Shown: positions 1 to 11,769 of the stretch, piece by piece
Numbering within the stretch: position 1 is the first letter of the stretch
Layout of the letters: each line of letters begins with the position of its first letter
Source of the DNA: a virus
Lineage: Duplodnaviria > Caudoviricetes
IMG/VR virus record: IMGVR_UViG_3300024429_000008
Span: 1-53,958 of that record
Strand: one strand, 5' to 3'
DNA length: 53,958 nucleotides
Made by a program: the position numbers and the translations under genes
The notes under the pieces: model-generated
What the model saw: the letters and a program-made list of their open reading frames with translations, nothing else
Databases searched by the model: none
Told to the model about the DNA's origin: nothing

Positions 1-584
1 ACTTCGAGATTCTAGGGACAAGTGCCAGCACGGATGATGTCGATCATAACGCCGAGGGTGGCCTGACCATGCAAACGGATGGAGCAAACGACGATCAGAT
101 CTTCGTTCATCCTCATCAGGATGCCAATCAGAGTCCCTGGAACTACGTGACGTGGGGGACGGATCAGGAAACCCGATACGAATGTCGGGTAGAGACCCCG
201 GTTGATGTAACCACGGGCATTCACCTAGTGGTAGGCTTGAAGACCGACCTGGATATGACGCTGAACGACGCCGACCTCGTCGTGTTCAACTACAACACGG
301 ATGACTCGGACCTGACATGGGGCGTGGTCGCCAACGTGAATAGTGGGACAGCTACGGATACCGATACCGGCGTCCCCTGCACTCCCGCGACAACCTACAT
401 TTTTGTAATCAAATTCGACGCAGCCGGAGTAGCCCACTGCTACATCAATGACCAGCTGGTGGCCGAGATCGATTTTGCTGGAGAGGCGGCAGACCTAAAA
501 CCATTTGTTGGCCTACAATCCCTGTCAGCAACGACAGACGAACTGGTCCTGATCGAGCAAAAGATCGGGCGGAACTACGCATAG
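1..584 (+). CDS. 3' part of putative virion beta-sandwich (ConA/LamG-like) protein, paralog 1; gene begins at 53818 across the circular junction
   Basis: Frame 3 is open from base 3 (FEILGTS...NAEGG...TWGTDQE...LKPFVGLQS). It shares motifs with 594..1340 and 1354..2088 and continues the ORF that starts at 53818. Confidence 0.75.
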   Translation, partial: FEILGTSASTDDVDHNAEGGLTMQTDGANDDQIFVHPHQDANQSPWNYVTWGTDQETRYECRVETPVDVTTGIHLVVGLKTDLDMTLNDADLVVFNYNTDDSDLTWGVVANVNSGTATDTDTGVPCTPATTYIFVIKFDAAGVAHCYINDQLVAEIDFAGEAADLKPFVGLQSLSATTDELVLIEQKIGRNYA

Positions 585-593
585 GAGACTGAG

Positions 594-1340
594 ATGCCAG
601 GAATAGGTACTCTACTGAGCACGGACAGACGCGAGTGGATCTGGGTTGCTGGCGAGAATGGCAAGCCCGGGGCCGTTGGGGACCTAGTGAACACCTCCGA
701 AGCGATCCGCATGATCTCCGACCACGCCGTGCAGGTCCTAGGGACGAGTGCTGTTACAGCCTGTGTCTCCAACAACGCCGAGGGTGGAGTGGATATCGTA
801 ACGGCTGGGGCTGACAACGATCAAACCATCCTAGTACCCCACGAAACTACCAATGCCTGCTTGCTACACCCCGACACGATGACTTGGGGTTCAGACCGGG
901 GCACTGAATTCGAGGTCCTGTTCAAGACTCCTTCATCCATTGCGACGATCCTCATCATGGCGGGCCTGAAGGCAGATGACAGCCCTGTGGACCTGGCCAT
1001 TACGGATGCCGATCTGGCTGTGCTGCAATTCAATACAGATGACACCGACACGAACTGGGGTTCCGTCTCAGATACCACAGCGGGATCGGACATCGACAAG
1101 GATACCGGCCATGTCGTGGCGGCCAGCACCATCTACAAGTTTGGCTGGAAGTTTGACCATAAGGGCGTGTGCCATGTATTCATCAACGACGAAGAGGTTG
1201 ACGCGATCGACTTCTCTAATGATGCAGTGGACTTCATCCCTATGATTGCCGTGCAGTCACTAGACGGAGATACCTCAGCTACACCTGCCCTGACCGTATA
1301 TGGGTGGCGGCTGTCCCGACGTTTCGGGGCTTCAGACTAA
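594..1340 (+). CDS. Putative virion beta-sandwich protein, paralog 2
   Basis: RBS AGGAG. Shared motifs RMISD, NAEGG, TWGSD, GLK, FINDEEV, IPMIAVQS. Acidic and Thr/Asp-rich. Confidence 0.75.
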   Translation: MPGIGTLLSTDRREWIWVAGENGKPGAVGDLVNTSEAIRMISDHAVQVLGTSAVTACVSNNAEGGVDIVTAGADNDQTILVPHETTNACLLHPDTMTWGSDRGTEFEVLFKTPSSIATILIMAGLKADDSPVDLAITDADLAVLQFNTDDTDTNWGSVSDTTAGSDIDKDTGHVVAASTIYKFGWKFDHKGVCHVFINDEEVDAIDFSNDAVDFIPMIAVQSLDGDTSATPALTVYGWRLSRRFGASD

Positions 1341-1353
1341 AGGAGAAACTATC

Positions 1354-2088
1354 GTGAGAGCCGGTACAGAAGCCTTCACTACCAAAGAAACAGGTCGCAG
1401 AGACAGGCTAAACCTGATCTGGCACCCCCAACGAGGGAAACCTGCTATTTTAGCAGATTATACCAGTGCCACCGATGCTACCCGAATGATTGCTGATCCG
1501 GACATGCTGATTGGAGGGACTAACATCGCCTCTAATACTTCAGCAGCGGCCGTTGAAGGGGGGTTGTTCTTAGCAGTAACGGCTGATGCTACCAACGCCG
1601 TGGCTATCTCCCCTCATACCCTGGCCAACAACAGCATCTGGCAGCAAGTCACCTGGGGAACGGACCAGGAAGTGGAATGGGAAGCCCTCCTCCAGTATGA
1701 TGCGGTTATGACTGATCGACTCTTCAAGTGTGGACTGTGTCTATTGCCTGCAACCGTAGACCTGGGCACGGACAACGACCAGATCGGATGGATGGCCGAG
1801 GACGACGGGGTTCTCGATGTCATCGCTTCTATCAGCAACGCCGACGTGACCATAGCCGGAGTGCAAACTGTAGTGGCTAGTCAGTACATCCACTTCGCCA
1901 TCAAGTTCGACGCTACCGGAGTCGCCCGCACTTACATTGATGGGCGTGAGGTACAAGTGAATGGGTACTACCGAGGCAACGCCGTAGATCTATTCCCCTA
2001 CGTAGCTACGCTGGAGGACACTTCCGCAGGTGCTCACCCTAAGATCAACGTCCTGGGGATGGCCATCAGCCGGGCGATTGGTACATAA
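1354..2088 (+). CDS. Putative virion beta-sandwich protein, paralog 3
   Basis: GTG start at 1354 after AAGGAG. Motifs RMIADPD, VEGG, TWGTDQE, YIDGREV. Confidence 0.75.
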   Translation: MRAGTEAFTTKETGRRDRLNLIWHPQRGKPAILADYTSATDATRMIADPDMLIGGTNIASNTSAAAVEGGLFLAVTADATNAVAISPHTLANNSIWQQVTWGTDQEVEWEALLQYDAVMTDRLFKCGLCLLPATVDLGTDNDQIGWMAEDDGVLDVIASISNADVTIAGVQTVVASQYIHFAIKFDATGVARTYIDGREVQVNGYYRGNAVDLFPYVATLEDTSAGAHPKINVLGMAISRAIGT

Positions 2089-2099
2089 GGAGGAGAATC

Positions 2100-2504
2100 A
2101 TGGGTCTAGGTACAGTACGAGCTGGGGCCCCCGTAAAGGGGACCACCGCAGCTGATGGAACTGATGGCAGCCTCACGCTCCCTCGGATCATCCTCTTTGA
2201 TCCTCCAGTGAGGCCATGTATTGTGACAAATCATTGCACTGGGGGAGAAATCCTAGTCAAGGTCAACACTGAGTTGAGTGGTACTGTATCAGAGACCTTC
2301 TCGGCTGCAAACGGCCTCGGTCATGTCATAATCCCCCCCAACATCACCCTGGCCGACGCCGCCAAGGACCACCCCGAGGGTGGGGCCCGCTGGGCTGATG
2401 TGAGCTTCGGAGGACTAGTAGCTGTTCACTCGGTAGCGATCAGTACCGTTGGCCAAAGCGGTCACGACTTGGACGACGTATCCGTGATAGGATTCGAGCC
2501 GTGA
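2100..2504 (+). CDS. Hypothetical protein, probably structural
   Basis: Strong RBS AGGAGGAG; 134 aa, beta-rich; in the same operon as the paralogs. Confidence 0.65.
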   Translation: MGLGTVRAGAPVKGTTAADGTDGSLTLPRIILFDPPVRPCIVTNHCTGGEILVKVNTELSGTVSETFSAANGLGHVIIPPNITLADAAKDHPEGGARWADVSFGGLVAVHSVAISTVGQSGHDLDDVSVIGFEP

Positions 2505-2734
2505 AGCAAGTTGACTCACTCGTAGCTGCTTTGGTAGGCGGGCTTCTGATGTTCCTAGCCCTGTGGCTGACTGTCCAACCTGTCTCTGCCAAAGAGGTAC
2601 ATGAATACGTCCGCTTAACCGTCGAGCGTCGGCTTGACAACATCGAGGATGGACTGAAAGAACTACGTCAAGGCCAGGTAGAACTGCAAAAGGGACTAGC
2701 TGGAGTGGAGGCTATACTTCTTTCTACCCAGTAG
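2501..2734 (+). CDS. Small membrane protein with coiled coil (holin/hemolysin XhlA-like architecture)
   Basis: N-terminal hydrophobic helix LVAALVGGLLMFLALWL, then a heptad-rich segment; GTGA overlap with the upstream gene. Confidence 0.5.
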   Translation: MKQVDSLVAALVGGLLMFLALWLTVQPVSAKEVHEYVRLTVERRLDNIEDGLKELRQGQVELQKGLAGVEAILLSTQ

Positions 2735-2754
2735 CAGAGACAGGGGGAGACAAG

Positions 2755-3060
2755 ATGTTACCCGAGTCGATCCAGATTGGAGCTCACGTCTATTCTTTGA
2801 CACTGGTAGGTCGAAAGAAGTTACAGAAGAATCACACCGCCGAGGTTGATAACGAACAGAATCAAATCCGCATTTATCAGAAGTGCACCGCTTCCCGTCG
2901 GATCGAAGTACTATTTCACGAGGTCATCCATGCCATATTGGCTGGGACGCAATTCCCCATGGAAGAAGTGACTTGTACCATCCTGGGGGAAGGTTTGACC
3001 CAGCTCATCCGAGATAATCCTGAACTAATCAAACATGTACAAGATACCCTAGCCGAATAG
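2755..3060 (+). CDS. Small HEXXH zinc metallopeptidase-like protein
   Basis: EVLFHEVIHAIL motif followed by a downstream Glu (MEE); common small phage family. Confidence 0.7.
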   Translation: MLPESIQIGAHVYSLTLVGRKKLQKNHTAEVDNEQNQIRIYQKCTASRRIEVLFHEVIHAILAGTQFPMEEVTCTILGEGLTQLIRDNPELIKHVQDTLAE

Positions 3061-3078
3061 GCAAGCCCAATTTACGGT
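3057..3078 (+). repeat. 22-bp direct repeat, copy 1 (ATAGGCAAGCCCAATTTACGGT)
   Basis: Identical copy at 8564..8585. Confidence 0.9.
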
Positions 3079-3133
3079 AGTGTTGAGGAAAACTCCAGGT
3101 ACAAGGGCTAGGGAAAAAAACCGAAAAAAAAAC

Positions 3134-3162
3134 TTGCCTTCGGTTGACCGGCGGCATAGAAT
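3134..3162 (+). promoter_or_regulatory. sigma70-type promoter of the ubiquitin-like operon
   Basis: TTGCCT-17 bp-TAGAAT with upstream A-tracts (UP-element-like), followed by hairpin TTTTTCGAC...GTCGAAAAA. Confidence 0.65.
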
Positions 3163-3241
3163 TTTTCGACGACGGCCGCCTCGGAGGCGGGGTCGAAAAA
3201 CTCCCAGCATTGGAAGCAAACAGCACGCACGGAGGATAATC

Positions 3242-3511
3242 ATGCAGAGACAAAGAGTGAAGGGTAGTAAGTGGATTTACTCAATGATCGTAGAGCATTT
3301 TCTCACCAAAGACATAGGGGTGTCACCCGATGGACTCGTACACTCCGATGGAAACGCCTTGTATTGTTGGGGAGTGAGCATAGCACGATGGCTAGACGGG
3401 ATACTACACGTGCGATCCCTAGAGGAATGTACCAAGAATAACGCAGTTCGGGAGGTCCGGGCTGGACTATTGGCAAGCTGCCAGGACAAGGCAGCCAACA
3501 GAAGGAGCTAG
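3242..3511 (+). CDS. Hypothetical protein, first gene of the Ubl operon
   Basis: ATG at 3242 after GGAGGA; 89 aa. Confidence 0.6.
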   Translation: MQRQRVKGSKWIYSMIVEHFLTKDIGVSPDGLVHSDGNALYCWGVSIARWLDGILHVRSLEECTKNNAVREVRAGLLASCQDKAANRRS

Positions 3512-3515
3512 CAGT

Positions 3516-3749
3516 ATGAGCGAGGGCAACGCAATCAACATCACCATTAGGATGGGTGGGGATAGCCTGAATTTCACTTTCCCTAGAGGGACTACAATCG
3601 GGGTCCTGACGGAGGATGGGAGACTACGCGGGTCTGAAGATGCTACTGTACAAGTCAATGGGGTGCAAGCGGATGAGGACACGGTCCTCGAAGACGGGGA
3701 CTGTGTCTCGCAGACGAAAGTGCACGGCCAGCAGGGATCGGACAACTAG
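3516..3749 (+). CDS. Ubiquitin-like beta-grasp protein (ThiS/MoaD/Ubl-like)
   Basis: 77 aa with beta-grasp pattern INITIR..FTFPRGTTIG..VQVNG..DTVLEDGD; ends GQQG-SDN; upstream of E1 and JAB genes. Confidence 0.8.
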   Translation: MSEGNAINITIRMGGDSLNFTFPRGTTIGVLTEDGRLRGSEDATVQVNGVQADEDTVLEDGDCVSQTKVHGQQGSDN

Positions 3750-3763
3750 GTATGTTATTCGTG

Positions 3764-3819
3764 GGCAGAGACAGGGGGACCCCAGGGGATATTATGGTCC
3801 CCACCCCCCTGTCTCTGCC
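3764..3819. repeat. 15-bp perfect inverted repeat built from two 11-mer copies
   Basis: GGCAGAGACAGGGGG (3764-3778) and CCCCCTGTCTCTGCC (3805-3819), intergenic after the Ubl gene. Confidence 0.85.
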
Positions 3820-3849
3820 ATTCTTGATGGGCTAGCTGGAGCAACTACC

Positions 3850-4212
3850 GTGGCAAAGTTTAAGGTTTGGCACCCGGATGGCGAAAGCCACGAGATTATG
3901 GGTGAACTCCGGATACTGACCAGTCAATGTGGACTCCACACTATATTGGCCATCCAGATGGTCCACCCAGTTACGAGTAGCGTGCCAGGTTACCAAGGGG
4001 ATCGGTGGGTCCCAGGAGTACTGTGTCCTATCAATCCTCTTTGTGTTATTGTAGACATGAAGTCAGACAAGATCTGCCACCATCCCCGCCGCCCGCTCAA
4101 CGAACAGCTTATGTCGGACCCGGCTTGGGAGTGGCTGAGGGATAATCCCACTTGGCCAAATGTGCTAGAGTTGGATTGGGAGAAAATGTGGCGTAAGGAG
4201 GATTGGGAATGA
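3850..4212 (+). CDS. Hypothetical protein (Ubl operon)
   Basis: Likely GTG start at 3850 after GGAG; Trp-rich C-terminus; ATGA overlap with the next gene. Confidence 0.55.
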   Translation: MAKFKVWHPDGESHEIMGELRILTSQCGLHTILAIQMVHPVTSSVPGYQGDRWVPGVLCPINPLCVIVDMKSDKICHHPRRPLNEQLMSDPAWEWLRDNPTWPNVLELDWEKMWRKEDWE

Positions 4213-4481
4213 GCTGTGATTGTATAAAACGTATTACCTTGCTGGTTGATCGACTCATCGAGTTGGAGGGCCGCGTAGGTATGATAGAGGCCAACTTGCG
4301 AGTAGCGGCGGAGGCTCTAGGCTTCCCGCCTTGGGATGAGGAAGTACATGGGGGAGGCTTTCCAGCGGAGGAGGATGAGGACCTTCCAGAGATAATCGGG
4401 GAAATTGGAGAGGAGTTTCCCTTTCCAGAGCTGGATGAGAATTTCCCTCCGGTGGAGGCAGAACTCGATGAAGAAAACTGA
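4209..4481 (+). CDS. Hypothetical protein with coiled coil and very acidic tail
   Basis: Translationally coupled on both sides; E/D-rich C-terminal half. Confidence 0.55.
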   Translation: MSCDCIKRITLLVDRLIELEGRVGMIEANLRVAAEALGFPPWDEEVHGGGFPAEEDEDLPEIIGEIGEEFPFPELDENFPPVEAELDEEN

Positions 4482-5190
4482 ACTGTTTGGACCAGGTTGT
4501 GAGTGGGTATTTGTGGGGTGCGGGGGGACTTTCTTTATGGCAATCCCTATATACTCCGTTTTGCTCCATAAGTACAGGCCCGGTAGCATTACGGTCATAG
4601 ACCCAGACCGTACAGAGCTGAAGAACTATGATCGACAATGGCCAGGGCGTGCCCCTGGACAGGAGAAGGCTCATCATGGCCGCGTCGCACTCGGTTGTCC
4701 AGGGGTCTCCATCGCGGAGCGATTCAATCCGAGTGATGAAGTTCTAATCGAGAGGACGGAGGGGAGACCAGTCGTAGCCATTGTGAATGTAGACAATGAC
4801 CAAGCCAGGCTAGACGTACACAGTTGGTTGGCGAGCCGGGTCAGCGATGGAGTTATGATAGATTCCGGTTGTGAAGCTGAGTACGGCCAATCTTGGGCCG
4901 GTATCTGGTTGGGTAGCAAGTGTATACACGATTGGTCGATTACTCACCCGAGTGTTGGGACGGTGGCCCCCGCAGCGGGGGGTGGATGTAGTCCACAGAC
5001 TGCTATGTCAAATCTTATGACAGCAACGTGCTCTGCCCTGATGATCGAAGAAGTAGTAAGATGGTTGCAAGCATTAGATGTAGGGATTCCACTGAGCATA
5101 CAGGAGTATGAATGGCAGATTTGGTCATCCAAGGGGGAAATTAGACTCTGGAATACTAAGATTCCTATACAGGTGGAAGGAAGTACTTGA
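4468..5190 (+). CDS. E1-like ThiF/MoeB-family adenylyltransferase (ubiquitin-activating-like)
   Basis: ATG at 4468 after GGAGG. Motifs VFVGCGG, VIDPD..ELKNYDRQ, K, VNVDN..AR, IDSG; candidate catalytic Cys in GGCSPQ...N. Confidence 0.88.
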   Translation: MKKTELFGPGCEWVFVGCGGTFFMAIPIYSVLLHKYRPGSITVIDPDRTELKNYDRQWPGRAPGQEKAHHGRVALGCPGVSIAERFNPSDEVLIERTEGRPVVAIVNVDNDQARLDVHSWLASRVSDGVMIDSGCEAEYGQSWAGIWLGSKCIHDWSITHPSVGTVAPAAGGGCSPQTAMSNLMTATCSALMIEEVVRWLQALDVGIPLSIQEYEWQIWSSKGEIRLWNTKIPIQVEGST

Positions 5191-6215
5191 TGTTACATAC
5201 GTTAGAAGATATTTGGGAAGACCTTGAGGAGCAGCAATCCAAGCCTAGGGTAACGATGGGTTCTCCTCTCGGCGAGGAGCAACCACTCCTTGAATGGAAG
5301 GATTTAGAGAAGTACACCACGGATGAGAAAACCGACCTGACCATAGGCAGGGACAATCGAGTGTACGGAATACGGGGGGATGTTGTACAGTGTTGGGCTC
5401 CATTAGCACCTACGGGACCAGAGCAGGTATATCTGGATTGTGTCCGATGGGGGAATGCACCTCCCCTAGAACACCTGGCCCATCTGTTTGAACATTTCTT
5501 CCAGAAGTATGATCAAGAAGTGATTATGCTAGTCGGCCAGAAATTGAATGGATCAGAGTGGCTGTACTTTGTACCTCCCCAAGTGGGGACGGGGGGAGGG
5601 GTGAAGTGGGATATCCGGGGGGAGGCTGCAAAAGAATTCACTGGCTTGGCTGTATGGATAGGAACGATCCATAGCCACCCTGGAAATTGCACCAGCCCCA
5701 GTACAGTAGACGTTAGCGAGTGGGCTGATCCCTTATGCTCTGGTATCCACATGATACTAGGGAACGATGGGAGTTATACTTATCATGGAGCCATCGTCGG
5801 GAAAACATTCCCCCTGAAGAGCGGGACTCTAGAAGGGGTTATGCCAGCACCGGTATGGTGGCGACAAAGTGGTGGGCGTAGCTTGGGAGAGTTGCTGCGG
5901 ACTCCACCCCCACTACCGCCTCCAACGCCCACTGTTAAGACGGTGGATACGACCGCGAGGCCCTTTCCCCGACTCCTAAGAGACGAGATCCCTCACCAGA
6001 TTACTCAAGACGAACCCGGACTCCCACCCGACTCCTATTCGTCCCTCGCCTGCGACCGGGATGACCTGGATGATTTACGGATCGTGTTCTCCGGGAATGC
6101 GGTTTGGATTATGACCTCTCTGGAATGCAGCGTTTGGATGAGTGAAAATCCCAGCCTCAGCTCCGAGGTAGAGATTCGGACGCTGCGGATTCCCAACGGA
6201 GGAGAGCCATCGTGA
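5190..6215 (+). CDS. JAB/MPN+ (JAMM) metallo-isopeptidase
   Basis: Exact JAMM motif HxH-x7-S-x2-D (HSHPGNCTSPSTVD) with upstream Glu (QEVIML); Pro-rich linker after the domain. Confidence 0.88.
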   Translation: MLHTLEDIWEDLEEQQSKPRVTMGSPLGEEQPLLEWKDLEKYTTDEKTDLTIGRDNRVYGIRGDVVQCWAPLAPTGPEQVYLDCVRWGNAPPLEHLAHLFEHFFQKYDQEVIMLVGQKLNGSEWLYFVPPQVGTGGGVKWDIRGEAAKEFTGLAVWIGTIHSHPGNCTSPSTVDVSEWADPLCSGIHMILGNDGSYTYHGAIVGKTFPLKSGTLEGVMPAPVWWRQSGGRSLGELLRTPPPLPPPTPTVKTVDTTARPFPRLLRDEIPHQITQDEPGLPPDSYSSLACDRDDLDDLRIVFSGNAVWIMTSLECSVWMSENPSLSSEVEIRTLRIPNGGEPS

Positions 6216-7966
6216 CCCTTAATGAGGTTGTACAACAAGCTATACGGGACCTAGGAACTGTTGACGGCCAGGCATCCGTGAGTGAATACACTAAGACATA
6301 CCCCTACATGGCTGTCCTAGAAACAGAGATGACATCCCGAGTATATCAGGTACTGGAGAGCGTCGTGGGAGGGTCCCCTGACTTCCCCTCACAACATGTC
6401 CACATGAGGCCGTTCCTACCAGATCGTCAGGATATTGATGGAATTTTGTGGGCTGGGGTACCCTCTCTCACCTGTTCAGGGGAATCTGAAGGAGGAGCTC
6501 TAATATTCCACCAGTTCTATGAGGGGCCACCCGAATCCCCCATCGGACCCGTAGCGTTGAGGATTATGCCTGGTCTCCAAGAGACTGACCTAGCTTTCGT
6601 CCCTATGCGATGTAATCGCCTTCGAGAAGTAATGCAAATTAGGGGAGGCCACCAACTTGATGATCCTCCAGAGCAATTCCCAATCGGCTATAATCGGGCC
6701 TGTCAGCCACGGGTGGATCATATAGCCGCCGCGATTATGGCCCTGGGAACGCATCCCGGGACACCTGGAATAGCCTTCCGAGGGTTGCTAGGGGATACCC
6801 CCATCGCAGTTTTTGCCCGGAGTTTGTGGGAGAACCTGTATCGAGATAAGGGTCCACTCTCCCTACAGACAGTAGGCTCACGCTTCGCCCATGCAGCAAA
6901 AATGGTCTTGGCTTATGCTTACCCGACGATGATGAGCCACCCCACATTGGAGGACTTGAAGTGTATTAGGCAGACTCTCAGGCATCCCCTTTGGAGCCTA
7001 GAGGAGGCGTGGCCAACCTATTACAACCTTGTAGTACCCCCTTCTCTCTTTCAGGCCGCTAGAGAATGCATGACTCAAGGACATACCCCTATCATACCCC
7101 AATACATAACATCTACCGTATGGTTATTCAACGGTGGTAGAGATAATTACTGTTTAGGGACTGATCCCAATCCGGGGAATTCTTGGTGGGCCAAGAAGGT
7201 TTGGGCCGGGATGCACTCCGGATTCAATCTCGACATATCGGGTGAATTCTCTAAGTGGCCGGGGCCAATCCCAGCGGAGTGGGCAACTCTGTTAGTACAG
7301 GCCATGCAGGATCAACAGGAAGAAACCCCACACCTGCGAGCTAGCCAGCAGACTGATGCAGGACTAGAGAAGGCCCGGAACGTACCCTGCATGTTCCGGT
7401 GTGTAGACTCAAGCTATGTAACTTCCTTGATCTACAATTTAGTCGATGCCTCGGGTGAGGTGCAATGCTGTGATGGTAACGGGGTTCCCCAAGAGGTCCC
7501 GCCATGCTCGGACCCCCCCTCCAACCCTTTTGAGAGAGAAGATGATGAAGAAAACGAAGATGACGTGTGTGCAGAGTGTAGAGGATCCTTCGATGACTAC
7601 ACAGTCTGCGGGAATTGCCACGAAATCATTTGTTCGGACTGTCACAGTCGCCCTGAAGGGCATGGGGAGTGTAGGTTCTGCCCATGTTGTCGCGACGATA
7701 CAGACCCCCACTATCGGGTTGATATGGCCCCTTGTCACCTTTGTGGCCGCCTCATTTGTAGTGACCACTATGACCATTGCGAGAGCTGCCTGCACTATAT
7801 CTGCTCTGCCTGTGAGTCTGCAGGAGATCACGCCTGTTCCCCCTGCGAAAGGTGCGGTGGACTATCCGACACCCTAGGTACATGCGAACGCTGTGGGACA
7901 GAAGGTCTATGTGCAACCTGCCGCGAGGGTTGCTGCCTCCTCACACAAGCTGACACGGAAGGATAA
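6212..7966 (+). CDS. Putative prokaryotic E2-like domain fused to a Cys-rich multi-zinc-finger C-terminus
   Basis: FNGGRDNYCLG...W...SGFNLD resembles the prokaryotic E2 family D pattern N..x..C.G...S.FN.D. The C-terminal ~130 aa has more than 10 CxxC/CxxH pairs. The E2 call is by motif resemblance and gene context. Confidence 0.55.
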   Translation: MTLNEVVQQAIRDLGTVDGQASVSEYTKTYPYMAVLETEMTSRVYQVLESVVGGSPDFPSQHVHMRPFLPDRQDIDGILWAGVPSLTCSGESEGGALIFHQFYEGPPESPIGPVALRIMPGLQETDLAFVPMRCNRLREVMQIRGGHQLDDPPEQFPIGYNRACQPRVDHIAAAIMALGTHPGTPGIAFRGLLGDTPIAVFARSLWENLYRDKGPLSLQTVGSRFAHAAKMVLAYAYPTMMSHPTLEDLKCIRQTLRHPLWSLEEAWPTYYNLVVPPSLFQAARECMTQGHTPIIPQYITSTVWLFNGGRDNYCLGTDPNPGNSWWAKKVWAGMHSGFNLDISGEFSKWPGPIPAEWATLLVQAMQDQQEETPHLRASQQTDAGLEKARNVPCMFRCVDSSYVTSLIYNLVDASGEVQCCDGNGVPQEVPPCSDPPSNPFEREDDEENEDDVCAECRGSFDDYTVCGNCHEIICSDCHSRPEGHGECRFCPCCRDDTDPHYRVDMAPCHLCGRLICSDHYDHCESCLHYICSACESAGDHACSPCERCGGLSDTLGTCERCGTEGLCATCREGCCLLTQADTEG

Positions 7967-7984
7967 AAATGGCAAAGACAGGAG

Positions 7985-8536
7985 ATGTGGATCATGCAGC
8001 TCCAGTATAATCGGTGTCCTAACGATCCCAACTTGCCAGTAGTCTCCCATGTAGGAATGACCGGTGATGGCAAGGTTGTTGAGGTAGGGCTCGCTGAGAT
8101 AACTAGTGCCCTGTCTCTGTACAGTGCTGCGTGTGTGGTAACTCTGGCAGCAAGGAATGGTATAGTTCCAGATTTCGTTACCCGCGTTGCGATGGCACTA
8201 ACACTTCCAATGAAGGAGGACCCCCATGGATTGTGTCTCCCCACGAAAATACTCATGGAGGCGAGCCTGATCCTGCAAGGACAGAAAATCCTGATGGATG
8301 AAAGGGGTCTCTTGCATACTGATATGGGGAGGCAGGACGGAATAGACCTTTTGAAAGGGTGCTCTCCCCATGTAGAACAGCCACCGTGTTGCAGAGACAG
8401 GCAAAAGATGCTGGAGGCTCTGGAGGATTTGACTAACCAAATGGGGCCTACCTTCGAAGTCGTGGAAGCACATTGTGGTCTAATCGTAGCTGGTTGTTGG
8501 AAGACTGCCCGAACGATTGTCGAATCGGCGGAGTGA
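7985..8536 (+). CDS. Hypothetical protein, last gene of the Ubl operon
   Basis: 183-aa ORF; start may be 7994. Confidence 0.55.
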   Translation: MWIMQLQYNRCPNDPNLPVVSHVGMTGDGKVVEVGLAEITSALSLYSAACVVTLAARNGIVPDFVTRVAMALTLPMKEDPHGLCLPTKILMEASLILQGQKILMDERGLLHTDMGRQDGIDLLKGCSPHVEQPPCCRDRQKMLEALEDLTNQMGPTFEVVEAHCGLIVAGCWKTARTIVESAE

Positions 8537-8563
8537 CGAATCCCAATTTGAGGTCTGGGAGTG

Positions 8564-8585
8564 ATAGGCAAGCCCAATTTACGGT
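8564..8585 (+). repeat. 22-bp direct repeat, copy 2
   Basis: Identical to 3057..3078. Confidence 0.9.
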
Positions 8586-8649
8586 CCAGGGGTCATGGTC
8601 CGAAAGTAACAGCGGGGAGTAGTACCCACAAAAAAAAACTGGATTCCGT

Positions 8650-8678
8650 TTGACAATCCGGCGGCCGGAGGGTATGCT
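8650..8678 (+). promoter_or_regulatory. sigma70-type early promoter
   Basis: TTGACA-17 bp-TATGCT with an upstream A-tract. Confidence 0.75.
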
Positions 8679-8762
8679 TTGGTGTCGGCCGTGGTGGCAA
8701 GCCGACGACCGGATCGGGCGTGCGTCCGATAGGTAACTTGGCCACCGGTAGGATCAGAGATA

Positions 8763-9062
8763 ATGGCGAATAGGAATCCAGCGGTGGCAGCCCCTGCAGG
8801 GAGCCCTTATGGGGCGAGTAATTGCAGCGTTTCGATGGACGACGACGATATTGTCATCCGTATATGGGGTGGGCACACTCTTGGCAAGGCAGGTGAATGG
8901 AAAAAGCCGGAATTGGCCGACGATGATAAGGTCGGCAAGGTGAAGGCGGAAGCGTACCGGTCCGATCCTAAGAACATGAGGCGTAAGAACCTGATCGGTA
9001 CGACCGGTGGATTCTGCCGATTGGGCGAATTCAGTGTCAGTGTGAATGTCACCACGGACTAG
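8763..9062 (+). CDS. Hypothetical protein
   Basis: 99 aa; first ORF after the promoter; ends LIGTTGGF..SVNV. Confidence 0.65.
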   Translation: MANRNPAVAAPAGSPYGASNCSVSMDDDDIVIRIWGGHTLGKAGEWKKPELADDDKVGKVKAEAYRSDPKNMRRKNLIGTTGGFCRLGEFSVSVNVTTD

Positions 9063-9080
9063 GCCACCGGCGGGAATAGA

Positions 9081-9147
9081 AGCAGAGACAGGCAGGGGAG
9101 CGGCCTAAGACTATACCGGATCCGAACCGCCCCCCCCTGTTTCTGCT
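9081..9147 (+). repeat. Imperfect inverted repeat / RNA hairpin built on the 11-mer
   Basis: AGCAGAGACAGG (9081-9092) pairs with CCTGTTTCTGCT (9136-9147) with one G-U pair; inner GGGG-GCGG/CCGC-CCCC pairing. Confidence 0.7.
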
Positions 9148-9171
9148 CTCTCCCATGAGAGGTATCGAGAA

Positions 9172-9405
9172 ATGTCACTAACAGCGGATGGATTTGTGCG
9201 ATGCACTCTGGACGAAGCTGGAGCTGAAGGTGCCGCCGGATGCTTGACCTGCGGCTGGATTTACACGCCTCAAGGCGACGACGCCTTCTGGCGTACACCG
9301 CCGGAGGCACATGGAGGGCCATACCTATGCGACCGGTGTGGGAACGAAGACCTATATGGGTTGATAGGATTAATGTTCCAGGGCCTAGTTGAATGGACGG
9401 TATGA
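9172..9405 (+). CDS. Small zinc-ribbon protein
   Basis: CLTCG...CDRCG; RBS GAGG. Confidence 0.65.
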   Translation: MSLTADGFVRCTLDEAGAEGAAGCLTCGWIYTPQGDDAFWRTPPEAHGGPYLCDRCGNEDLYGLIGLMFQGLVEWTV

Positions 9406-9524
9406 TGATTGAGGCAATCCTTCAGGCGAGCGGCTGCGGGATTCTAGGGCTTATGATGGCAACCATTTTGACGCCTGGATTCTGTGGGGTATACCAGTGG
9501 TTGGAACGGCAGTTTGAGGATTGA
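9402..9524 (+). CDS. 40-aa hydrophobic microprotein
   Basis: MMIEAILQASGCGILGLMMATILTPGFCGVYQWLERQFED; ATGA overlap with the upstream gene; below the ORF-track cutoff. Confidence 0.45.
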   Translation: MMIEAILQASGCGILGLMMATILTPGFCGVYQWLERQFED

Positions 9525-9544
9525 GGAACTGGGAGGGTAAAGCT

Positions 9545-9754
9545 ATGGTGAAATACGTTATGCATCGCAAGGTGGATGGGGTGTTCTATGCTCGCAAAGG
9601 GGATGCTGGCCCATCCGGAGCTTACACAACGAGTCTCCTCAGTGAAGCTACAATCTATAACCACCTGAACCCGTGGGCTTCCAGCCCCATCGTAGCGGCC
9701 TGGGAAGCTATACCGGTTCGGGTCAAGGTGACCTACCTGGAGGATGAGAATTAG
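9545..9754 (+). CDS. Hypothetical protein
   Basis: ATG at 9545 after GGGAGG. Confidence 0.55.
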   Translation: MVKYVMHRKVDGVFYARKGDAGPSGAYTTSLLSEATIYNHLNPWASSPIVAAWEAIPVRVKVTYLEDEN

Positions 9755-9788
9755 AGAACCCGGACGCAAAGATTTTTGATTTTTGCTC

Positions 9789-9817
9789 TGGACAAGTGGC
9801 CCGGTGGTTGGTATAGT
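9789..9817 (+). promoter_or_regulatory. sigma70-type promoter
   Basis: TGGACA-17 bp-TATAGT with extended -10 TG and upstream T-tracts. Confidence 0.6.
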
Positions 9818-9855
9818 TTGGACAGAGCCGTACAGTCGGCTACGGGAGTGAGACA

Positions 9856-9978
9856 ATGGACGCAGTCTTTGGAACCTTGGCGGGACTGGTATACGGATTG
9901 ATGGGGTTTGCGACGTTGCCATTGATGATCTGTGGTATAGTTGCTCTCATAGCACCCTACGGATGGGGAAGCAAGTGA
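9856..9978 (+). CDS. 40-aa membrane microprotein
   Basis: MDAVFGTLAGLVYGLMGFATLPLMICGIVALIAPYGWGSK; RBS GGGAG; directly after the promoter. Confidence 0.55.
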   Translation: MDAVFGTLAGLVYGLMGFATLPLMICGIVALIAPYGWGSK

Positions 9979-10061
9979 CGGACACGCTCGGCTGGCTCGT
10001 GTGGATAGGGATTATATGGGTGGGTTTCCGTATAATCAGTCGCACTGTGCATGATGAATAA
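9975..10061 (+). CDS. 28-aa membrane microprotein
   Basis: MTDTLGWLVWIGIIWVGFRIISRTVHDE; GTGA overlap with the upstream gene. Confidence 0.45.
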   Translation: MTDTLGWLVWIGIIWVGFRIISRTVHDE

Positions 10062-10071
10062 GGGGCTTAAC

Positions 10072-10371
10072 ATGAAGCAGAACTCATATGGTGATTCACC
10101 GGATGGAATGATGGTAGCGATGATAGATACGATAGTCAAGCACCAGCCTATCGAGGACGTGATTGAAGCCCTAGCTGATTCTCTCGTGGAAGCATCTCGG
10201 CGAAGTGTCCGCTGCCTCCCGGGCGACCGGTGGGAGTCTTTATTGGACCTCGTTGATCGGCTGCGGGCCGTGGAGATACCGCCGAATTTAAAGGGCGACT
10301 ACCTATTTACGAAGGGGGTGACGGATGGAAGTGAACCTGAAAAAACCAGCCCCACCAGTACACTGGTTTAG
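10072..10371 (+). CDS. Hypothetical protein
   Basis: ATG at 10072 after AAGGGG. Confidence 0.5.
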   Translation: MKQNSYGDSPDGMMVAMIDTIVKHQPIEDVIEALADSLVEASRRSVRCLPGDRWESLLDLVDRLRAVEIPPNLKGDYLFTKGVTDGSEPEKTSPTSTLV

Positions 10372-10588
10372 ATTTGCACTACTGGGAGTGGGGATAGGGC
10401 TGCTGATCGTGTGTGCGTGGGTAGGGTGGACCAGACAACTACCATGGGCAGAGACAGGCAAGGTCGCACCAGCAGTGTATACGTCGCACGTGCACCATTA
10501 TGAGGCTGGGCTGTCGGTGGCTGAGCGGGCACGGGTCGAGAGGGTGGAAAGGCTGGCGGAGAAGTACAGCATGTTTAAGGACGACTGA
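10325..10588 (+). CDS. Single-pass membrane protein
   Basis: Hydrophobic helix FALLGVGIGLLIVCAWVGW. Confidence 0.55.
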   Translation: MEVNLKKPAPPVHWFRFALLGVGIGLLIVCAWVGWTRQLPWAETGKVAPAVYTSHVHHYEAGLSVAERARVERVERLAEKYSMFKDD

Positions 10589-10590
10589 CT

Positions 10591-11145
10591 ATGAAGGACG
10601 TTGTTGTTGAGGTTAGGGGGGGTTTGATTGTTGAGGTCTACTGCGACCAGTCTGATGTCCGTATTATCGTCATTGACTGGGATAACATAGACGATTCTCC
10701 GAGCAGGCTCGTCGGCTTCTGTTGGGAGCCTCGGGAGCAGCTTGGATTGCTACCTGATGACACGCGTGCCCAATATGAGCATGTCATCACCGGAGTGGTT
10801 GAGGATGCTATCACCGATGTGGTTGAGGGTGGCGACTCGAGGGAAACGGAGCGGATTGTGGCGTTAGGGGTGTGCTACAGCGATGGTACATGGGATCGTA
10901 AATGGACTGCGGCTATCCCGGAGGACACGCCAGACGACCGAGTCGCGAAGGTAGCCGATGACAACTTCCGGCGGGAATGGGAAAGTGAGGGACGCGATCC
11001 CGATGAGGTTATCGAAGTCTGGTTGTGGAATTATGCAGACCGTTACTATGGCAAGGTAGCGGAGGAGACGGCTCCGCGATGTACGTATTGTGGACGTGCG
11101 GACGATGTGGTTGACGACGACGACTGTGTGATTGACGGGGCGTAG
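10591..11145 (+). CDS. Hypothetical acidic protein
   Basis: N-terminus VVVEVRGGLIVEVY..VIDWDN resembles a common small phage domain; C-terminal CxxC. Confidence 0.6.
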   Translation: MKDVVVEVRGGLIVEVYCDQSDVRIIVIDWDNIDDSPSRLVGFCWEPREQLGLLPDDTRAQYEHVITGVVEDAITDVVEGGDSRETERIVALGVCYSDGTWDRKWTAAIPEDTPDDRVAKVADDNFRREWESEGRDPDEVIEVWLWNYADRYYGKVAEETAPRCTYCGRADDVVDDDDCVIDGA

Positions 11146-11631
11146 CGGAGGGGGGATAGTATGTGGATAGTAGGGGGGTGGATAGTGGTTGTAGTGTGTC
11201 TGGTCACCCAATGGTGGTGGCCGGGTGCCCATGCGACGCGGTGGCGTTGTGTGATGTTGGCACTGGTGGTATTGATGGGGCTCGGGTGGCACGGCTGTTT
11301 CCAATCTGTCTAATCTGTTTAACTTACCTGATCCGTACAACTTGACCAGTCAGCACAGTTAGTACAATCGGTACAACCAGTGCAGGCAGGCAAGCTGCCA
11401 TTTTGGCAGTGTCTGTTTCTGCTAGTTGAGACTGAGTCTCATTATCAATTAGGTGGTGGCCAGGGGTCCTGGAGGAATGATGCCTGAAAGCATCATTGGG
11501 CCCTGGGGATGATGCAAAATAACCACACACCCCTACAATCGTTACATCTTACCCACCTTAACACCCCAAATCATGCAGAGACAGGCGAATTTGCCTAGGC
11601 GTAGCTGAATATGTGCCCTAACGCCACCCAA

Positions 11632-11669
11632 CATGGGCAATACTACCCACCATGGGCAATACTACCCAC
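11632..11669 (+). repeat. Perfect 19-bp tandem repeat (CATGGGCAATACTACCCAC x2)
   Basis: 11632-11650 and 11651-11669, in the largest non-coding region. Confidence 0.9.
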
Positions 11670-11769
11670 ATAAGTGTGTCTTTAGGCTGCCCCCCCGTCG
11701 GCCCCTGGAGTAAAGTGGTGGTGAGGTTAATAGAACCTCCCATCTTTAACCAACTTTTCACGAAATTCC

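What the first reader, a model, noticed from the sequence alone, without database searches (positions are those of the whole stretch)
3134..8536. Phage-encoded ubiquitin-like conjugation system (Ubl + E1 + JAB + putative E2-zinc finger)
Seen: one operon with a beta-grasp Ubl (3516), a ThiF/E1 with GxGG, NxxRQ and a candidate catalytic Cys (4468), a JAB with an intact JAMM motif (5190), and a 584-aa protein with an E2-like Cys motif plus many zinc knuckles (6212), interspersed with four unknown genes. No ThiG or MoaE-type sulfur-transfer partners are present. Established: Ubl/E1/E2/JAB sets mediate protein conjugation in bacterial anti-phage systems (Bil; CBASS Cap2/Cap3) and occur in PRTRC elements. 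Inference: this phage carries its own early-expressed writer and eraser, to tag host or competing-phage proteins or to counter or mimic host ubiquitin-like defence. I am not aware of a characterised virus-side equivalent in bacteria.
Basis: partly seen in the sequence, partly recalled or inferred. Interest (0 to 1): 0.95.

Follow-up and report, generated by a model that had tools for sequence, protein, structure and literature searches.

The report
Virus-encoded ubiquitin-like tagging module
A complete 54-kb tailed virus from an environmental sample carries its own small ubiquitin-like protein, the enzyme that activates it and the protease that trims or removes it, next to a conserved cysteine protein of unknown fold, which suggests that the virus can tag proteins in the way cells do.

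Summary
In a complete 53,958-bp virus genome, one + strand gene string encodes three proteins I could confirm. The first is a ThiS/SAMP-type ubiquitin-like protein (3516-3749; the family profile's best solved-structure hit is SAMP2). The second is a minimal 240-aa E1/ThiF-like adenylating enzyme (4468-5190; its profile hits UBA5, MoeB and MccB). The third is a JAMM/JAB metalloprotease with an invariant E..HxHx7Sx2D motif (5187-6215).

The order Ubl-E1-JAB-584-aa protein-183-aa protein recurs in about 18 related viral and metagenomic loci, including a very divergent one.

The E2 claim is not supported. Two confident AlphaFold models of the 584-aa protein match no solved or viral fold (best Z 3.9), and no E2 family model matches it. 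Its family of 57 representatives does carry an N-x6-C-x-G signature with a never-substituted cysteine, and it always follows the JAB gene. About half of the members carry Cys-rich zinc-knuckle tails.

My best reading (0.5) is a virus-encoded, sampylation-like protein-conjugation module, with a novel cysteine protein as the likely transfer or targeting component. A sulfur-carrier role is the main rival. Targets, timing and host are unknown. I found no published phage equivalent.

The parts
2755..3060 (+). 101-aa minimal zincin-like protein (HExxH at aa 55-59, plus E70/E71/E79). It is a conserved upstream neighbour of the module.
   Evidence: phrog_1233 E 3.3e-12. Pfam SprT-like 0.0029 and M78 0.1, both below cut-off. 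H55, E56 and H59 are invariant in 9 of 9 homologues. The PDB profile search gave only insignificant IrrE and Spartan rows. It is present upstream in 12 of the 19 locus rows and in L021, and absent in L012.
3242..3511 (+). Small conserved ORF of unknown function (about 89 aa from ATG 3242; the open frame begins at 3080).
   Evidence: ORF listed. Weak homologues sit directly upstream of the Ubl in 8 of the 19 locus rows: L002 and its duplicate L005, L007, L009, L013, L014 and L015 (BLASTP E 5e-4 to 3e-6). No family hit.
3516..3749 (+). 77-aa ubiquitin-like protein of the ThiS/MoaD/SAMP type. It ends ..G71-Q-Q-G74 followed by three extra residues (S-D-N).
   Evidence: Profile hits to SAMP2, PF1061, MoaD and ThiS. 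Pfam ThiS in 9 of 12 members. C-terminal alignment.
3850..4212 (+). 120-aa conserved ORF of unknown function (GTG start, preceded by GGAG), with a Trp-rich acidic end.
   Evidence: Sequence. Homologues lie directly upstream of E1 in L004, L016 and L021. No family hit.
4203..4481 (+). 92-aa acidic ORF overlapping the E1 start. Function unknown.
   Evidence: Acidic ORFs occupy the same position in L002 and L003. No family hit.
4468..5190 (+). 240-aa single-domain E1/ThiF-like adenylating enzyme.
5187..6215 (+). About 341-aa JAMM/JAB metalloprotease with conserved N- and C-terminal extensions. Its start overlaps the E1 stop.
6212..7531 (+). N-terminal 440 aa of the 584-aa protein: a conserved domain of unrecognised fold carrying N307 (nt 7130-7132), C314 (nt 7151-7153) and G316. 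Its start overlaps the JAB stop.
7568..7921 (+). Cys-rich tail of the same protein: 10 CxxC pairs, enough for about five Zn(Cys)4 sites. The tail varies in length and is absent in some relatives.
7985..8536 (+). 183-aa conserved ORF of unknown function that follows the 584-aa gene.
   Evidence: Homologues occupy the same position in L002, L003, L011, L018 and L021. No family hit.

Best explanation
This is a virus-encoded ubiquitin-like protein modification module. It works most like archaeal sampylation (SAMP + UbaA + JAMM), with one extra component of a new kind.

Proposed steps:
1. The JAB protease removes the short extension (S-D-N here) to expose Gly74 of the Ubl. It can also reverse conjugates.
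2. The single-domain E1 binds ATP and adenylates the Ubl C-terminus.
3. The activated Ubl is passed, possibly through Cys174 of the E1, to the invariant Cys314 of the 584-aa protein. That protein acts as a non-UBC carrier or ligase, and its variable zinc-knuckle tail helps to choose targets.
4. The Ubl ends up on lysines of host or viral proteins during infection.

What is shown: the family assignments of the Ubl, E1 and JAB, their intact motifs, and the strict synteny of all four genes. What is inferred: steps 1 to 4, the thioester on Cys314, the targets and the timing.
For: Family assignments. The Ubl profile's best solved relative is SAMP2 (E 3.9e-4), followed by PF1061, MoaD and ThiS, and 9 of 12 members hit Pfam ThiS. 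The E1 profile hits UBA5, MoeB, MccB, UBA6 and SAE2. Its GCGGT, D45, R56-Q57, K67, VNVDN, C135 and C174 are invariant in 19 of 19 sequences. The JAB has E..HxHx7Sx2D invariant in 12 of 12 and its profile hits AMSH, AfJAMM and Rpn11.

Ubl C-terminus. Of 14 Ubls, 7 end exactly at the aligned Gly and 4 have Gly plus 1-3 extra residues. This is the pattern expected for a tail that is trimmed and then activated.

Synteny.
- JAB follows E1 in all 16 of the 19 locus rows in which the contig continues past E1, and in L021.
- A Ubl is found in every locus with room upstream.
- The 584-aa family follows JAB in 11 of 11 distinct loci that have sequence downstream. A profile built from only 5 close members finds it in L012, L013, L004, L021 and L016 (E 3e-54 to 1.4e-10). 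L019 is assigned by alignment only.
- The E1/JAB and JAB/584-aa genes overlap by 4 bases.

584-aa family. Cys314 is present in 54 of 54 aligned sequences, G316 in 55 of 55 and N307 in 50 of 54. No His or Asp column is conserved, so a Cys-His protease is unlikely.

Genome context. The genome encodes no ThiG, MoaE, rhodanese or PP-loop ATPase. In the 522-kb contig behind L012 the module lies among a PARP+WGR protein, a histidine phosphatase, a PP2C and a kinase-like protein, all protein- or nucleotide-modifying enzymes.

Precedent from the literature. SAMPs are conjugated to lysines by a mechanism that requires the E1-like UbaA, and are removed by the JAMM protease HvJAMM1 (PMC4443979, passages read).
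Against: There is no biochemical or expression evidence of any kind.

Every single-sequence family score is below its curated cut-off: ThiF 15.6 against 28.1, Prok-JAB 23.8 against 25, PRTRC_ThiF 20.3 against 144.75 and Cap3 20.4 against 200.

The 584-aa protein has no detectable UBC fold or any other known fold, so its role is argued only from synteny and one Cys motif.

Three of the 14 Ubls have Ala instead of Gly at the terminal position (L004, L020, L021). The penultimate residue is Gln or Leu, not Gly.

Ubl + E1 + JAB sets without an E2 also serve sulfur transfer in cells (PMC1779556, passages read).

The host is unknown. No relative was found in 185,579 species genomes.
Confidence: 0.5

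Rival explanations
1. Sulfur-carrier pathway. The E1 adenylates the Ubl, a host persulfide source converts it to a thiocarboxylate, and the sulfur is used to thiolate a cofactor, a tRNA, viral DNA or a small molecule. The JAB only matures the carrier. The 584-aa Cys protein would be the sulfur acceptor or insertion enzyme.
For: The Ubl belongs to the ThiS/MoaD lineage. The E1 is a short MoeB/ThiF-sized enzyme whose profile hits MoeB. ThiS/MoaD-like + JAB + E1-like gene neighbourhoods linked to sulfur assimilation are described in prokaryotes (PMC1779556, passages and Table 1 text read). An invariant Cys in the partner protein would suit persulfide chemistry.
Against: The 54-kb genome has no ThiG, MoaE, rhodanese or PP-loop thiolase. 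The C-terminus is Q-G or L-G or L-A, not the G-G that I recall as near-universal in sulfur carriers (recalled, not tested). The E1 has no rhodanese domain, being a single 240-aa domain. The context in L012 is protein-modifying enzymes, not biosynthesis. The JAB is kept even where the Ubl already ends in Gly (7 of 14), which fits an eraser better than a maturase.
Confidence: 0.2
2. Virion-assembly chaperone system. The Ubl and JAB act on the virus's own structural proteins, as proposed for lambda tail-assembly proteins I (Ubl) and K (JAB), here with an E1 added. The targets would be viral proteins, not host proteins.
For: Phage Ubl + JAB pairs in tail assembly are a described theme (PMC1779556, passages read). 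PHROGs gives the JAB a weak 'tail protein' hit (phrog_5556, E 0.0029). The conserved block continues upstream into three paralogous ~250-aa proteins and a highly conserved 134-aa protein that could be virion parts.
Against: The module lies about 9 kb upstream of the terminase. Small ORFs and a D5-type primase separate it from the structural genes. Lambda-type systems have no E1. The JAB here is not fused to NlpC/P60. In L012 the module sits among PARP, kinase and phosphatase genes, not structural genes.
Confidence: 0.12
3. Virus-borne exclusion or defence system against competing viruses, analogous to Bil. The Ubl would be conjugated to proteins of a superinfecting virus.
For: Bil, type II CBASS and probably Bub use Ubl/E1/E2/peptidase sets for antiphage immunity, and such operons are mobile (PMC11601596, sections 3 and 5 read; PMC1779556).
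Against: No integrase or resolvase is found in the genome, and no prophage relative in 185,579 species genomes, so a long residence in a host that needs protection is not evident. PADLOC models hit only the JAB, and weakly. The module is a conserved core block of this virus group rather than a sporadic cargo gene.
Confidence: 0.08
4. C-terminal tailoring of a peptide product, in the manner of MccB or PaaA. The E1 would convert the Ubl-like protein's C-terminus into a nucleotide or heterocycle adduct with toxic or signalling activity.
For: The E1 profile also hits MccB (E 0.004) and PaaA (0.071). Some Ubls end in Ala rather than Gly.
Against: The MccB and PaaA hits are weaker than those to UBA5 and MoeB and cover only the shared adenylation core. 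The substrate candidate is a folded beta-grasp-type domain by profile, not a short peptide. The presence of a JAMM isopeptidase fits the Ubl cycle.
Confidence: 0.04

Closest known systems
Archaeal sampylation (SAMP1/2/3 + E1-like UbaA + JAMM protease HvJAMM1)
   Same: It uses a small ThiS/MoaD-type Ubl with a C-terminal Gly, a MoeB-like E1 and a JAMM protease that removes the Ubl. SAMP2 is the best solved hit of the Ubl profile. Conjugation to lysines requires the E1 (PMC4443979).
   Different: This module is encoded by a virus, not a cell. The C-terminus is Q-G rather than G-G. The E1 is shorter (240 aa), with no rhodanese domain and no Cys4 zinc motif seen in the alignment. A conserved 584-aa Cys protein, a 183-aa protein and a zincin travel with it. 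That sampylation needs no E2 is recalled, not read here.
Bil (BilA Ubl, BilB E2, BilC JAB, BilD E1) antiphage systems
   Same: Both combine a Ubl, an E1, a JAB and a fourth protein presumed to carry the Ubl. In Bil the E2 is proposed to recognise targets directly, without an E3 (PMC11601596 section 5), which parallels the proposed role of the 584-aa protein.
   Different: [quoted passage not shown] No UBC-fold E2 was detected. PADLOC models hit only the JAB, and weakly. Bil is a host defence; this module is viral.
Type II CBASS Cap2 (E1-E2 fusion) and Cap3 (JAB)
   Same: Both have a JAB isopeptidase working with an E1-type activator. NCBIfam Cap3 is the best NCBIfam hit of the JAB (E 4.8e-4).
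   Different: The Cap3 score is 20.4 bits against a cut-off of 200. There is no E1-E2 fusion: none was found among longer proteins, which is weak evidence. There is a separate Ubl, rather than a CD-NTase C-terminus as the substrate.
PRTRC (ParB-related, ThiF-related cassette) of plasmids and ICEs
   Same: It has a short ThiF-family protein of similar size. PRTRC_ThiF is the best NCBIfam hit of the E1 (E 2.9e-4). It is carried by mobile elements.
   Different: The score is 20.3 bits against a cut-off of 144.75. No other NCBIfam model, PRTRC models included, hit any of the nine operon proteins at E<=1 beyond the rows listed.
Lambda/T1 tail-assembly proteins TAPI (Ubl) and TAPK (JAB + NlpC/P60)
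   Same: A phage-encoded Ubl with a conserved C-terminal Gly sits next to a JAB peptidase predicted to cleave at that Gly (PMC1779556).
   Different: Those systems have no E1 and lie inside the tail gene cluster. Here an E1 and a Cys protein are present and the genes lie away from the structural block.
E1-like (ThiF) genes of Asgard-archaeal 'Nidhogg' viruses
   Same: These are viruses of prokaryotes from sediments that carry E1-like genes, described as near UBA5 (10.1101/2021.07.29.454249, passages read). UBA5 is also the best solved hit of the E1 here.
   Different: The passages I read report no viral Ubl or JAB. The authors propose hijacking of the host Ubl system. Any relationship to this E1 family is untested, because their figures and data files were not visible.

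Membership tests
E1-like / ThiF adenylation superfamily | Glycine-rich nucleotide-binding loop (GxGxxG type) at the start of the Rossmann-like domain | tested here: met
   VGCGGT at aa 15-20. G17, C18, G19, G20 and T21 are invariant in 19 of 19.
E1-like / ThiF adenylation superfamily | Conserved Arg-Gln, Lys and Asp (xDN) residues of the ATP/Mg site | tested here: met
   R56, Q57, K67, D109 and N110 are invariant in 19 of 19. They align with the UBA5 core in the HMMER alignment. The roles of these residues are recalled, not tested.
E1-like / ThiF adenylation superfamily | Significant match to family models or solved members | tested here: met
   The single sequence is below the Pfam cut-off (15.6 against 28.1 bits). 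The profile of 19 hits UBA5 at 6.4e-5, MoeB at 1.9e-4 and MccB at 0.004, and the top 24 rows of the table are all E1-like proteins. The database's precomputed Pfam column lists PF00899 for 3 of the 19 homologues.
E1-like / ThiF adenylation superfamily | Catalytic cysteine that forms the Ubl thioester | tested here: inconclusive
   C135 and C174 are invariant. Which one, if either, is catalytic cannot be told from sequence. Some E1-likes (MoeB, Bub E1) work without one (PMC11601596).
JAMM/MPN+ (JAB) metalloprotease | E ... HxHx7Sx2D zinc and catalytic motif | tested here: met
   E111 and H162-S-H164-x7-S172-x2-D175 are invariant in 12 of 12.
JAMM/MPN+ (JAB) metalloprotease | Significant match to family models or solved members | tested here: met
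   Prok-JAB E 4.3e-5, 1.2 bits under the cut-off. PADLOC JAB 2.3e-5. The profile hits AMSH-like Sst2 at 2.1e-4, AfJAMM at 0.0029 and Rpn11 at 0.014.
ThiS/MoaD/SAMP beta-grasp Ubl | Sequence-profile similarity to the family | tested here: met
   SAMP2 3.9e-4, PF1061 0.0089, MoaD 0.039. Pfam ThiS in 9 of 12 members, best E 9.5e-5.
ThiS/MoaD/SAMP beta-grasp Ubl | C-terminal glycine available for adenylation | tested here: met
   Of 14 Ubls, 7 end at the aligned Gly, 4 have Gly plus 1-3 residues (the window has G74 + SDN) and 3 have Ala. A di-glycine is not present.
ThiS/MoaD/SAMP beta-grasp Ubl | Beta-grasp three-dimensional fold | not tested
The fold is inferred from profile matches only.
E2 / UBC superfamily (including Pfam Prok-E2_A to E) | UBC fold (helix, four-strand meander, Cys loop, helices) | tested here: inconclusive
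   The models of aa 1-470 (pLDDT 84.3) and aa 262-440 (pLDDT 83.7) gave no UBC chain among the matches. Best Foldseek E was 0.27 and 1.5. Best VIA Z was 3.8 and 3.9, with none of 48,161 chains at Z>=5.
E2 / UBC superfamily (including Pfam Prok-E2_A to E) | Match to UQ_con or Prok-E2 family models | tested here: not met
   No Pfam hit at E<=1 for the protein. None in 57 family members at E<=0.01. No UQ_con match in the genome at E<=1.
E2 / UBC superfamily (including Pfam Prok-E2_A to E) | Catalytic Cys preceded by an HPN-type Asn | tested here: inconclusive
   C314 is present in 54 of 54 and N307 in 50 of 54, seven residues apart. There is no His-Pro before the Asn. The resemblance to HPN...C is recalled and proves nothing by itself.
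PRTRC cassette | PRTRC_ThiF equivalog score, plus ParB-related and PRTRC A-F partner proteins | tested here: not met
   20.3 bits against a cut-off of 144.75. No other PRTRC model hit the nine operon proteins at E<=1.
Bil system | BilD-type E1 with tandem adenylation domains and a Cys domain, plus a UBC-type BilB | tested here: not met
   The E1 is a single 240-aa domain. PADLOC models matched only the JAB. The Bil architecture is taken from PMC11601596 section 5.
Type II CBASS (Cap2/Cap3) | Cap3 equivalog score, E1-E2 fusion, CD-NTase | tested here: not met
   Cap3 scores 20.4 bits against a cut-off of 200. No fused longer E1 was found, which is weak evidence. CD-NTase was not searched for genome-wide.

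The most novel reading that the evidence does not exclude
The 584-aa family is a new, non-UBC class of ubiquitin-like-protein carrier or ligase, a functional E2/E3 built on an unrecognised fold around an N-x6-C-x-G loop with exchangeable zinc-knuckle targeting tails. It lets a lytic virus of prokaryotes write its own Ubl mark on host proteins, with a JAMM eraser. This would be a virus-side counterpart of Bil and CBASS conjugation.
Probability: 0.3. Interest if true: 0.9.

Novelty: new variant of a known kind. Interest (0 to 1): 0.7.

Why it matters
Ubl conjugation in prokaryotes is so far known as a cellular process (sampylation) and as host defence against phages (Bil, type II CBASS, Bub). 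A complete Ubl, E1 and JAMM set kept as a core block of a group of ~50-57 kb tailed viruses would show that viruses of prokaryotes also use this chemistry. That is what many eukaryotic viruses do with ubiquitin.

The module offers a compact, four-gene system that can be tested directly in E. coli. It also points to a protein family (57 representatives in 1.84 billion) with a confident predicted structure, no known fold relative and a never-substituted cysteine. If that cysteine carries the Ubl, it defines a new kind of transfer enzyme.

If the module instead proves to be a sulfur carrier, it would be an unusual viral auxiliary pathway. That would still be worth knowing, but it would be less surprising.

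Tried and rejected
DNA and protein searches of the 50,697-record phage collection with the region and with the E1 found nothing. Records of or near this genome may be masked there.

A word-based search with the 584-aa protein found only itself among 6,461 candidates. The exhaustive profile search was needed.

The ESM Atlas gave no usable hit.

For the 584-aa protein, fold searches listed no UBC, RING, HECT, NEL or protease chain above noise. This covered Foldseek PDB and BFVD on the 470-aa model, Foldseek PDB on the 179-aa model, and VIA-align wide on both. This absence does not prove that the fold is new.

Pfam on five Cys-rich tails gave only sub-threshold B-box-like, Siva and zinc-ribbon rows.

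Complex prediction (E1 + Ubl + the 470-aa domain, with that domain as the scored partner) gave no verdict: scores 0.26, 0.66 and 0.06 against a mark of 0.32. I do not use it as evidence either way.

The look-up of sequencing runs listed no RNA holder, only one DNA run that may be the source sample.

The promoter and terminator scan of 1-14000 gave counts near those of shuffled sequence (16 against 11.1 +/- 3.3, and 7 against 10.3 +/- 2.9), so it says nothing about operon limits or timing.

No tRNA genes were found.

Host search: there were no relatives of the E1 or of the 134-aa protein in genome contigs.

The search for fused, longer E1 forms found none. The tool itself calls this weak evidence.

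The zincin profile against the PDB gave only insignificant IrrE and Spartan rows.

Literature: five full-text searches listed no paper describing a phage-encoded Ubl + E1 + JAB conjugation system. The PRTRC search listed only genome-annotation papers, of which I saw only the listing. Figures S1 and S3 and data files S6-S7 of the Asgard-virus preprint, and Table S1 of the Bub preprint, might bear on whether related viral E1s or operons were already catalogued.

Full report
WHAT THE WINDOW IS

The window is a whole IMG/VR virus record of 53,958 bp that CheckV rates 100% complete. It carries a D5-type primase (13736-15151), a large terminase (17056-18918), a family-A DNA polymerase fused to a UDG domain (48370-51090, minus strand), a PD-(D/E)XK nuclease and an AAA_24 protein. 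It has no tRNA genes, no integrase or resolvase and no DNA or E1-protein match in 50,697 deposited phage genomes. It is therefore an uncultured tailed virus with no close described relative. Its host is unknown. Neither the E1 nor the most conserved neighbouring protein has a relative in one genome each of 185,579 prokaryotic species.

CHECKING THE OBSERVATION

Taken singly, their family scores are weak:
- E1: Pfam ThiF E 0.0089 (15.6 bits, cut-off 28.1) and NCBIfam PRTRC_ThiF E 2.9e-4 (20.3 against 144.75).
- JAB: Prok-JAB 4.3e-5 (23.8 against 25), Cap3 4.8e-4 (20.4 against 200) and PADLOC JAB 2.3e-5.
- Ubl: only a TGS row (0.018).
- 584-aa protein: nothing.

I therefore collected relatives and used profiles.

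THE E1

A word-based search found 18 homologues of 233-251 aa at 33-45% identity, some on contigs of 49-55 kb. In the 19-sequence alignment the following are invariant: G17-C18-G19-G20-T21, D45, R56-Q57, K67, V106-N-V-D-N110, R114, S133-G-C135 and C174-x-x-Q177. The profile hits UBA5 (6.4e-5), MoeB (1.9e-4), MccB (0.004), UBA6 (0.018), SAE2 (0.028) and PaaA (0.071). The top 24 rows of the table are all E1-like enzymes. So 4468-5190 is a genuine but divergent single-domain E1/ThiF-like adenylating enzyme. C174 is a reasonable candidate for a catalytic Cys, but this is unproven.

THE UBL

Twelve homologues taken from the related loci align over the whole length. They share a V-N-G ... L-x-x-G-D-x-V pattern and a conserved G-x-x-G end. 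The profile's best solved hit is the archaeal modifier SAMP2 (3.9e-4, and 0.0014 for a second entry), followed by PF1061 (0.0089), another SAMP2 (0.023), MoaD (0.039) and ThiS (0.8). Unrelated rows are interspersed at E 0.007-0.1. Scanned singly against Pfam, 9 of 12 members hit ThiS (best 9.5e-5), 7 of 12 ThiS-like, 6 of 12 S4, 4 of 12 Ub-Mut7C, 4 of 12 TGS and 2 of 12 SAMP2.

Adding the Ubls of L019 and L021 gives 14 sequences:
- 7 end exactly at the aligned Gly.
- 4 carry Gly plus 1-3 residues (the window has G74 then S-D-N).
- 3 have Ala at that position.

This is the signature of a Ubl whose tail is trimmed and then activated. I did not model its structure, so the beta-grasp fold rests on profiles alone.

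THE JAB

In 12 homologues, E111 and H162-x-H164-x7-S172-x2-D175 are invariant. The profile hits AMSH-like Sst2 (2.1e-4), AfJAMM (0.0029), Rpn11 (0.014) and CSN5 (0.17). The protein also has conserved N- and C-terminal extensions of unknown role.

THE 584-AA PROTEIN

No Pfam, PHROGs, NCBIfam or PADLOC model matches it. A word search finds only itself. A profile of ten syntenic homologues, searched against 1.84 billion representative proteins, finds 57 proteins (45 at E<=1e-10), and the most widely shared part is window aa ~262-435. None of the 57 has a Pfam family, apart from one weak IBR row on a Cys-rich tail.

AlphaFold2 gave confident models of aa 1-470 (pLDDT 84.3, pTM 0.83) and of aa 262-440 alone (pLDDT 83.7, pTM 0.82). 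Neither matches anything:
- Foldseek against the PDB: best E 0.27 and 1.5.
- Foldseek against BFVD: best E 0.72.
- VIA-align against 48,161 chains: best Z 3.8 and 3.9, with none at Z>=5.

No UBC chain appears in any list. The genome has no UQ_con match either. So 'E2' is not supported. By the tool's own caution it is not strictly excluded.

What the family does have is a sharp signature. C314 is present in 54 of 54 aligned sequences, G316 in 55 of 55, N307 in 50 of 54, K/R329 in 53 of 54 and W357 in 55 of 56, and several prolines are also conserved. No His or Asp column is conserved, which argues against a Cys-His protease. The Cys-rich tail (26 Cys and 10 CxxC pairs in aa 441-584) is present in roughly half of the family and absent in L012, L004, L016 and L021. 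It is therefore an exchangeable accessory, probably zinc-binding. Its only family rows are sub-threshold B-box-like and Siva matches.

SYNTENY

The E1 profile found 3 viral loci and 16 metagenomic loci. Two of the metagenomic loci are the same contigs as two viral ones.
- JAB follows E1 in all 16 locus rows in which the contig continues.
- A Ubl lies upstream wherever there is room. L019 is included only once a profile is used.
- A member of the 584-aa family follows the JAB in 11 of 11 distinct loci with downstream sequence. A profile built from only five close members recovers the genes of L012, L013, L004, L021 and L016 at E 3e-54 to 1.4e-10. L019 is assigned by alignment and motif only.

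L021 was found by starting from distant members of the 584-aa family. It is a different 57-kb virus whose E1 is only 30% identical. It nevertheless keeps the order 134-aa protein, membrane protein, zincin, Ubl, 3850-type ORF, E1, JAB, Cys protein, 183-aa-type ORF.

In the window, the E1/JAB and JAB/584-aa genes overlap by four bases. These four genes are therefore one functional unit that has stayed together over deep divergence.

In L012, which lies in a 522-kb contig, the unit lacks the zincin. It sits between a PARP+WGR protein and a histidine phosphatase on one side and a PP2C and a kinase-like protein on the other. That is a neighbourhood of modifying enzymes.

HOW IT MOST LIKELY WORKS

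The triad Ubl + E1 + JAMM is the minimal set known to conjugate a Ubl to lysines and take it off again in archaea (SAMPs, UbaA, HvJAMM1; PMC4443979, passages read). I propose the same logic here:
1. The JAB matures the Ubl and also erases conjugates.
2. The E1 adenylates Gly74.
3. The invariant Cys314 of the 584-aa protein takes the Ubl as a thioester and delivers it to targets. The zinc-knuckle tail contributes specificity.

The last point is inference from synteny, translational coupling and the Asn-Cys signature only.

A single C-terminal Gly preceded by a bulky residue recalls conjugating Ubls such as UFM1 and ATG8 rather than sulfur carriers. This is recalled knowledge, not tested here. 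UBA5, the UFM1 E1, happens to be the best solved hit of the E1. The absence of ThiG, MoaE, rhodanese and PP-loop thiolases from the genome removes the obvious sulfur acceptors, although host enzymes could serve.

I put 0.5 on protein conjugation with the Cys protein as a component, 0.2 on a sulfur-carrier pathway, and smaller odds on virion assembly, exclusion of rival viruses and MccB-like tailoring.

COMPARISON WITH KNOWN SYSTEMS

- PRTRC: not a member. The score is far below the cut-off and the partner proteins are absent.
- Bil: not a member. BilD is a multidomain E1 and BilB a UBC E2 (PMC11601596 section 5), and PADLOC models hit only the JAB.
- Type II CBASS: not a member. The Cap3 score is a tenth of the cut-off, and no E1-E2 fusion was found.
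- Bub: this system shows that bacterial Ubl pathways can depart far from textbook chemistry (oxyester intermediates, a new serine protease; PMC11601596, abstract and section 3). That makes a non-UBC carrier less far-fetched.

Virus-side precedents are partial. Lambda and T1 tail-assembly proteins I (Ubl) and K (JAB) lack an E1 (PMC1779556, passages). 'Nidhogg' viruses of Helarchaeota carry three E1-like genes, thought to hijack the host's Ubl system (10.1101/2021.07.29.454249, passages). Five full-text searches listed no phage-encoded Ubl + E1 + JAB writer/eraser.

VERDICT

The Ubl, E1 and JAB are confirmed. The 'E2' is replaced by 'conserved cysteine protein of unrecognised fold'. Early expression and counter-defence remain guesses. 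I classify the finding as a new variant of a known kind: a prokaryotic Ubl system that is virus-encoded and has a novel fourth component. Interest 0.7. The finding is directly testable with four genes in E. coli, and a specialist in bacterial ubiquitin-like systems would want to know what Cys314 does. Nothing functional has been shown yet.

LIMITS
- The Ubl fold was not modelled.
- The complex prediction gave no verdict.
- No RNA data exist.
- Paper supplements were closed.

Noticed in passing
window 3-584, 594-1340, 1300-2088: Three tandem paralogous proteins of ~250 aa (29-45% identical to one another's homologues) open the same + strand block. They recur as 3-4 paralogues in L002, as one detected homologue in L003 and as ~250-aa ORFs at the same position in L021. 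The two that I scanned (594-1340 and 1300-2088) have no Pfam or PHROGs hit.
   Followed up: partly
window 2100-2504: This 134-aa protein is the best-conserved gene of the whole region: 69% identity to L003 and 68% to L021, where the E1 is only 42% and 30% identical. It has no Pfam hit (no other library tried) and no relative in genome contigs. It is a possible structural protein, or a candidate target of the module.
   Followed up: partly
L012 1-14690 (a stretch of a 522,438-bp metagenome contig): The Ubl-E1-JAB-Cys-protein unit, here without the zincin, lies between a PARP+WGR protein and a histidine phosphatase upstream and a PP2C phosphatase and a kinase-like protein downstream. The contig may be a jumbo virus or a cell. 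Its record is not held, so this could not be settled.
   Followed up: partly
window 48370-51090 (minus strand): A 906-aa protein combines a uracil-DNA-glycosylase-superfamily domain (aa 63-230) with a family-A DNA polymerase domain (aa 643-877).
   Followed up: no
window 3750-3849: A 100-base non-coding gap follows the Ubl stop codon, while the genes downstream overlap or abut. The next gene starts at GTG 3850 behind a GGAG. This could allow separate dosage of the Ubl. It was not analysed further.
   Followed up: no
L004 3104-3331, L020 629-901, L021 4511-4819: Three of the 14 Ubls have Ala instead of Gly at the presumed activated C-terminal position (..GGKQAA..GGRLA..GGRLA). Either Ala is tolerated by these E1s, or the processing site is the upstream Gly-Gly.
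   Followed up: no
window 4203-4481 and 3850-4212; L002 5661-5990; L003 5784-5990; L021 4828-5286: The small ORFs just upstream of the E1 all end in strongly acidic tails, some after a coiled-coil-like start. Function unknown.
   Followed up: no
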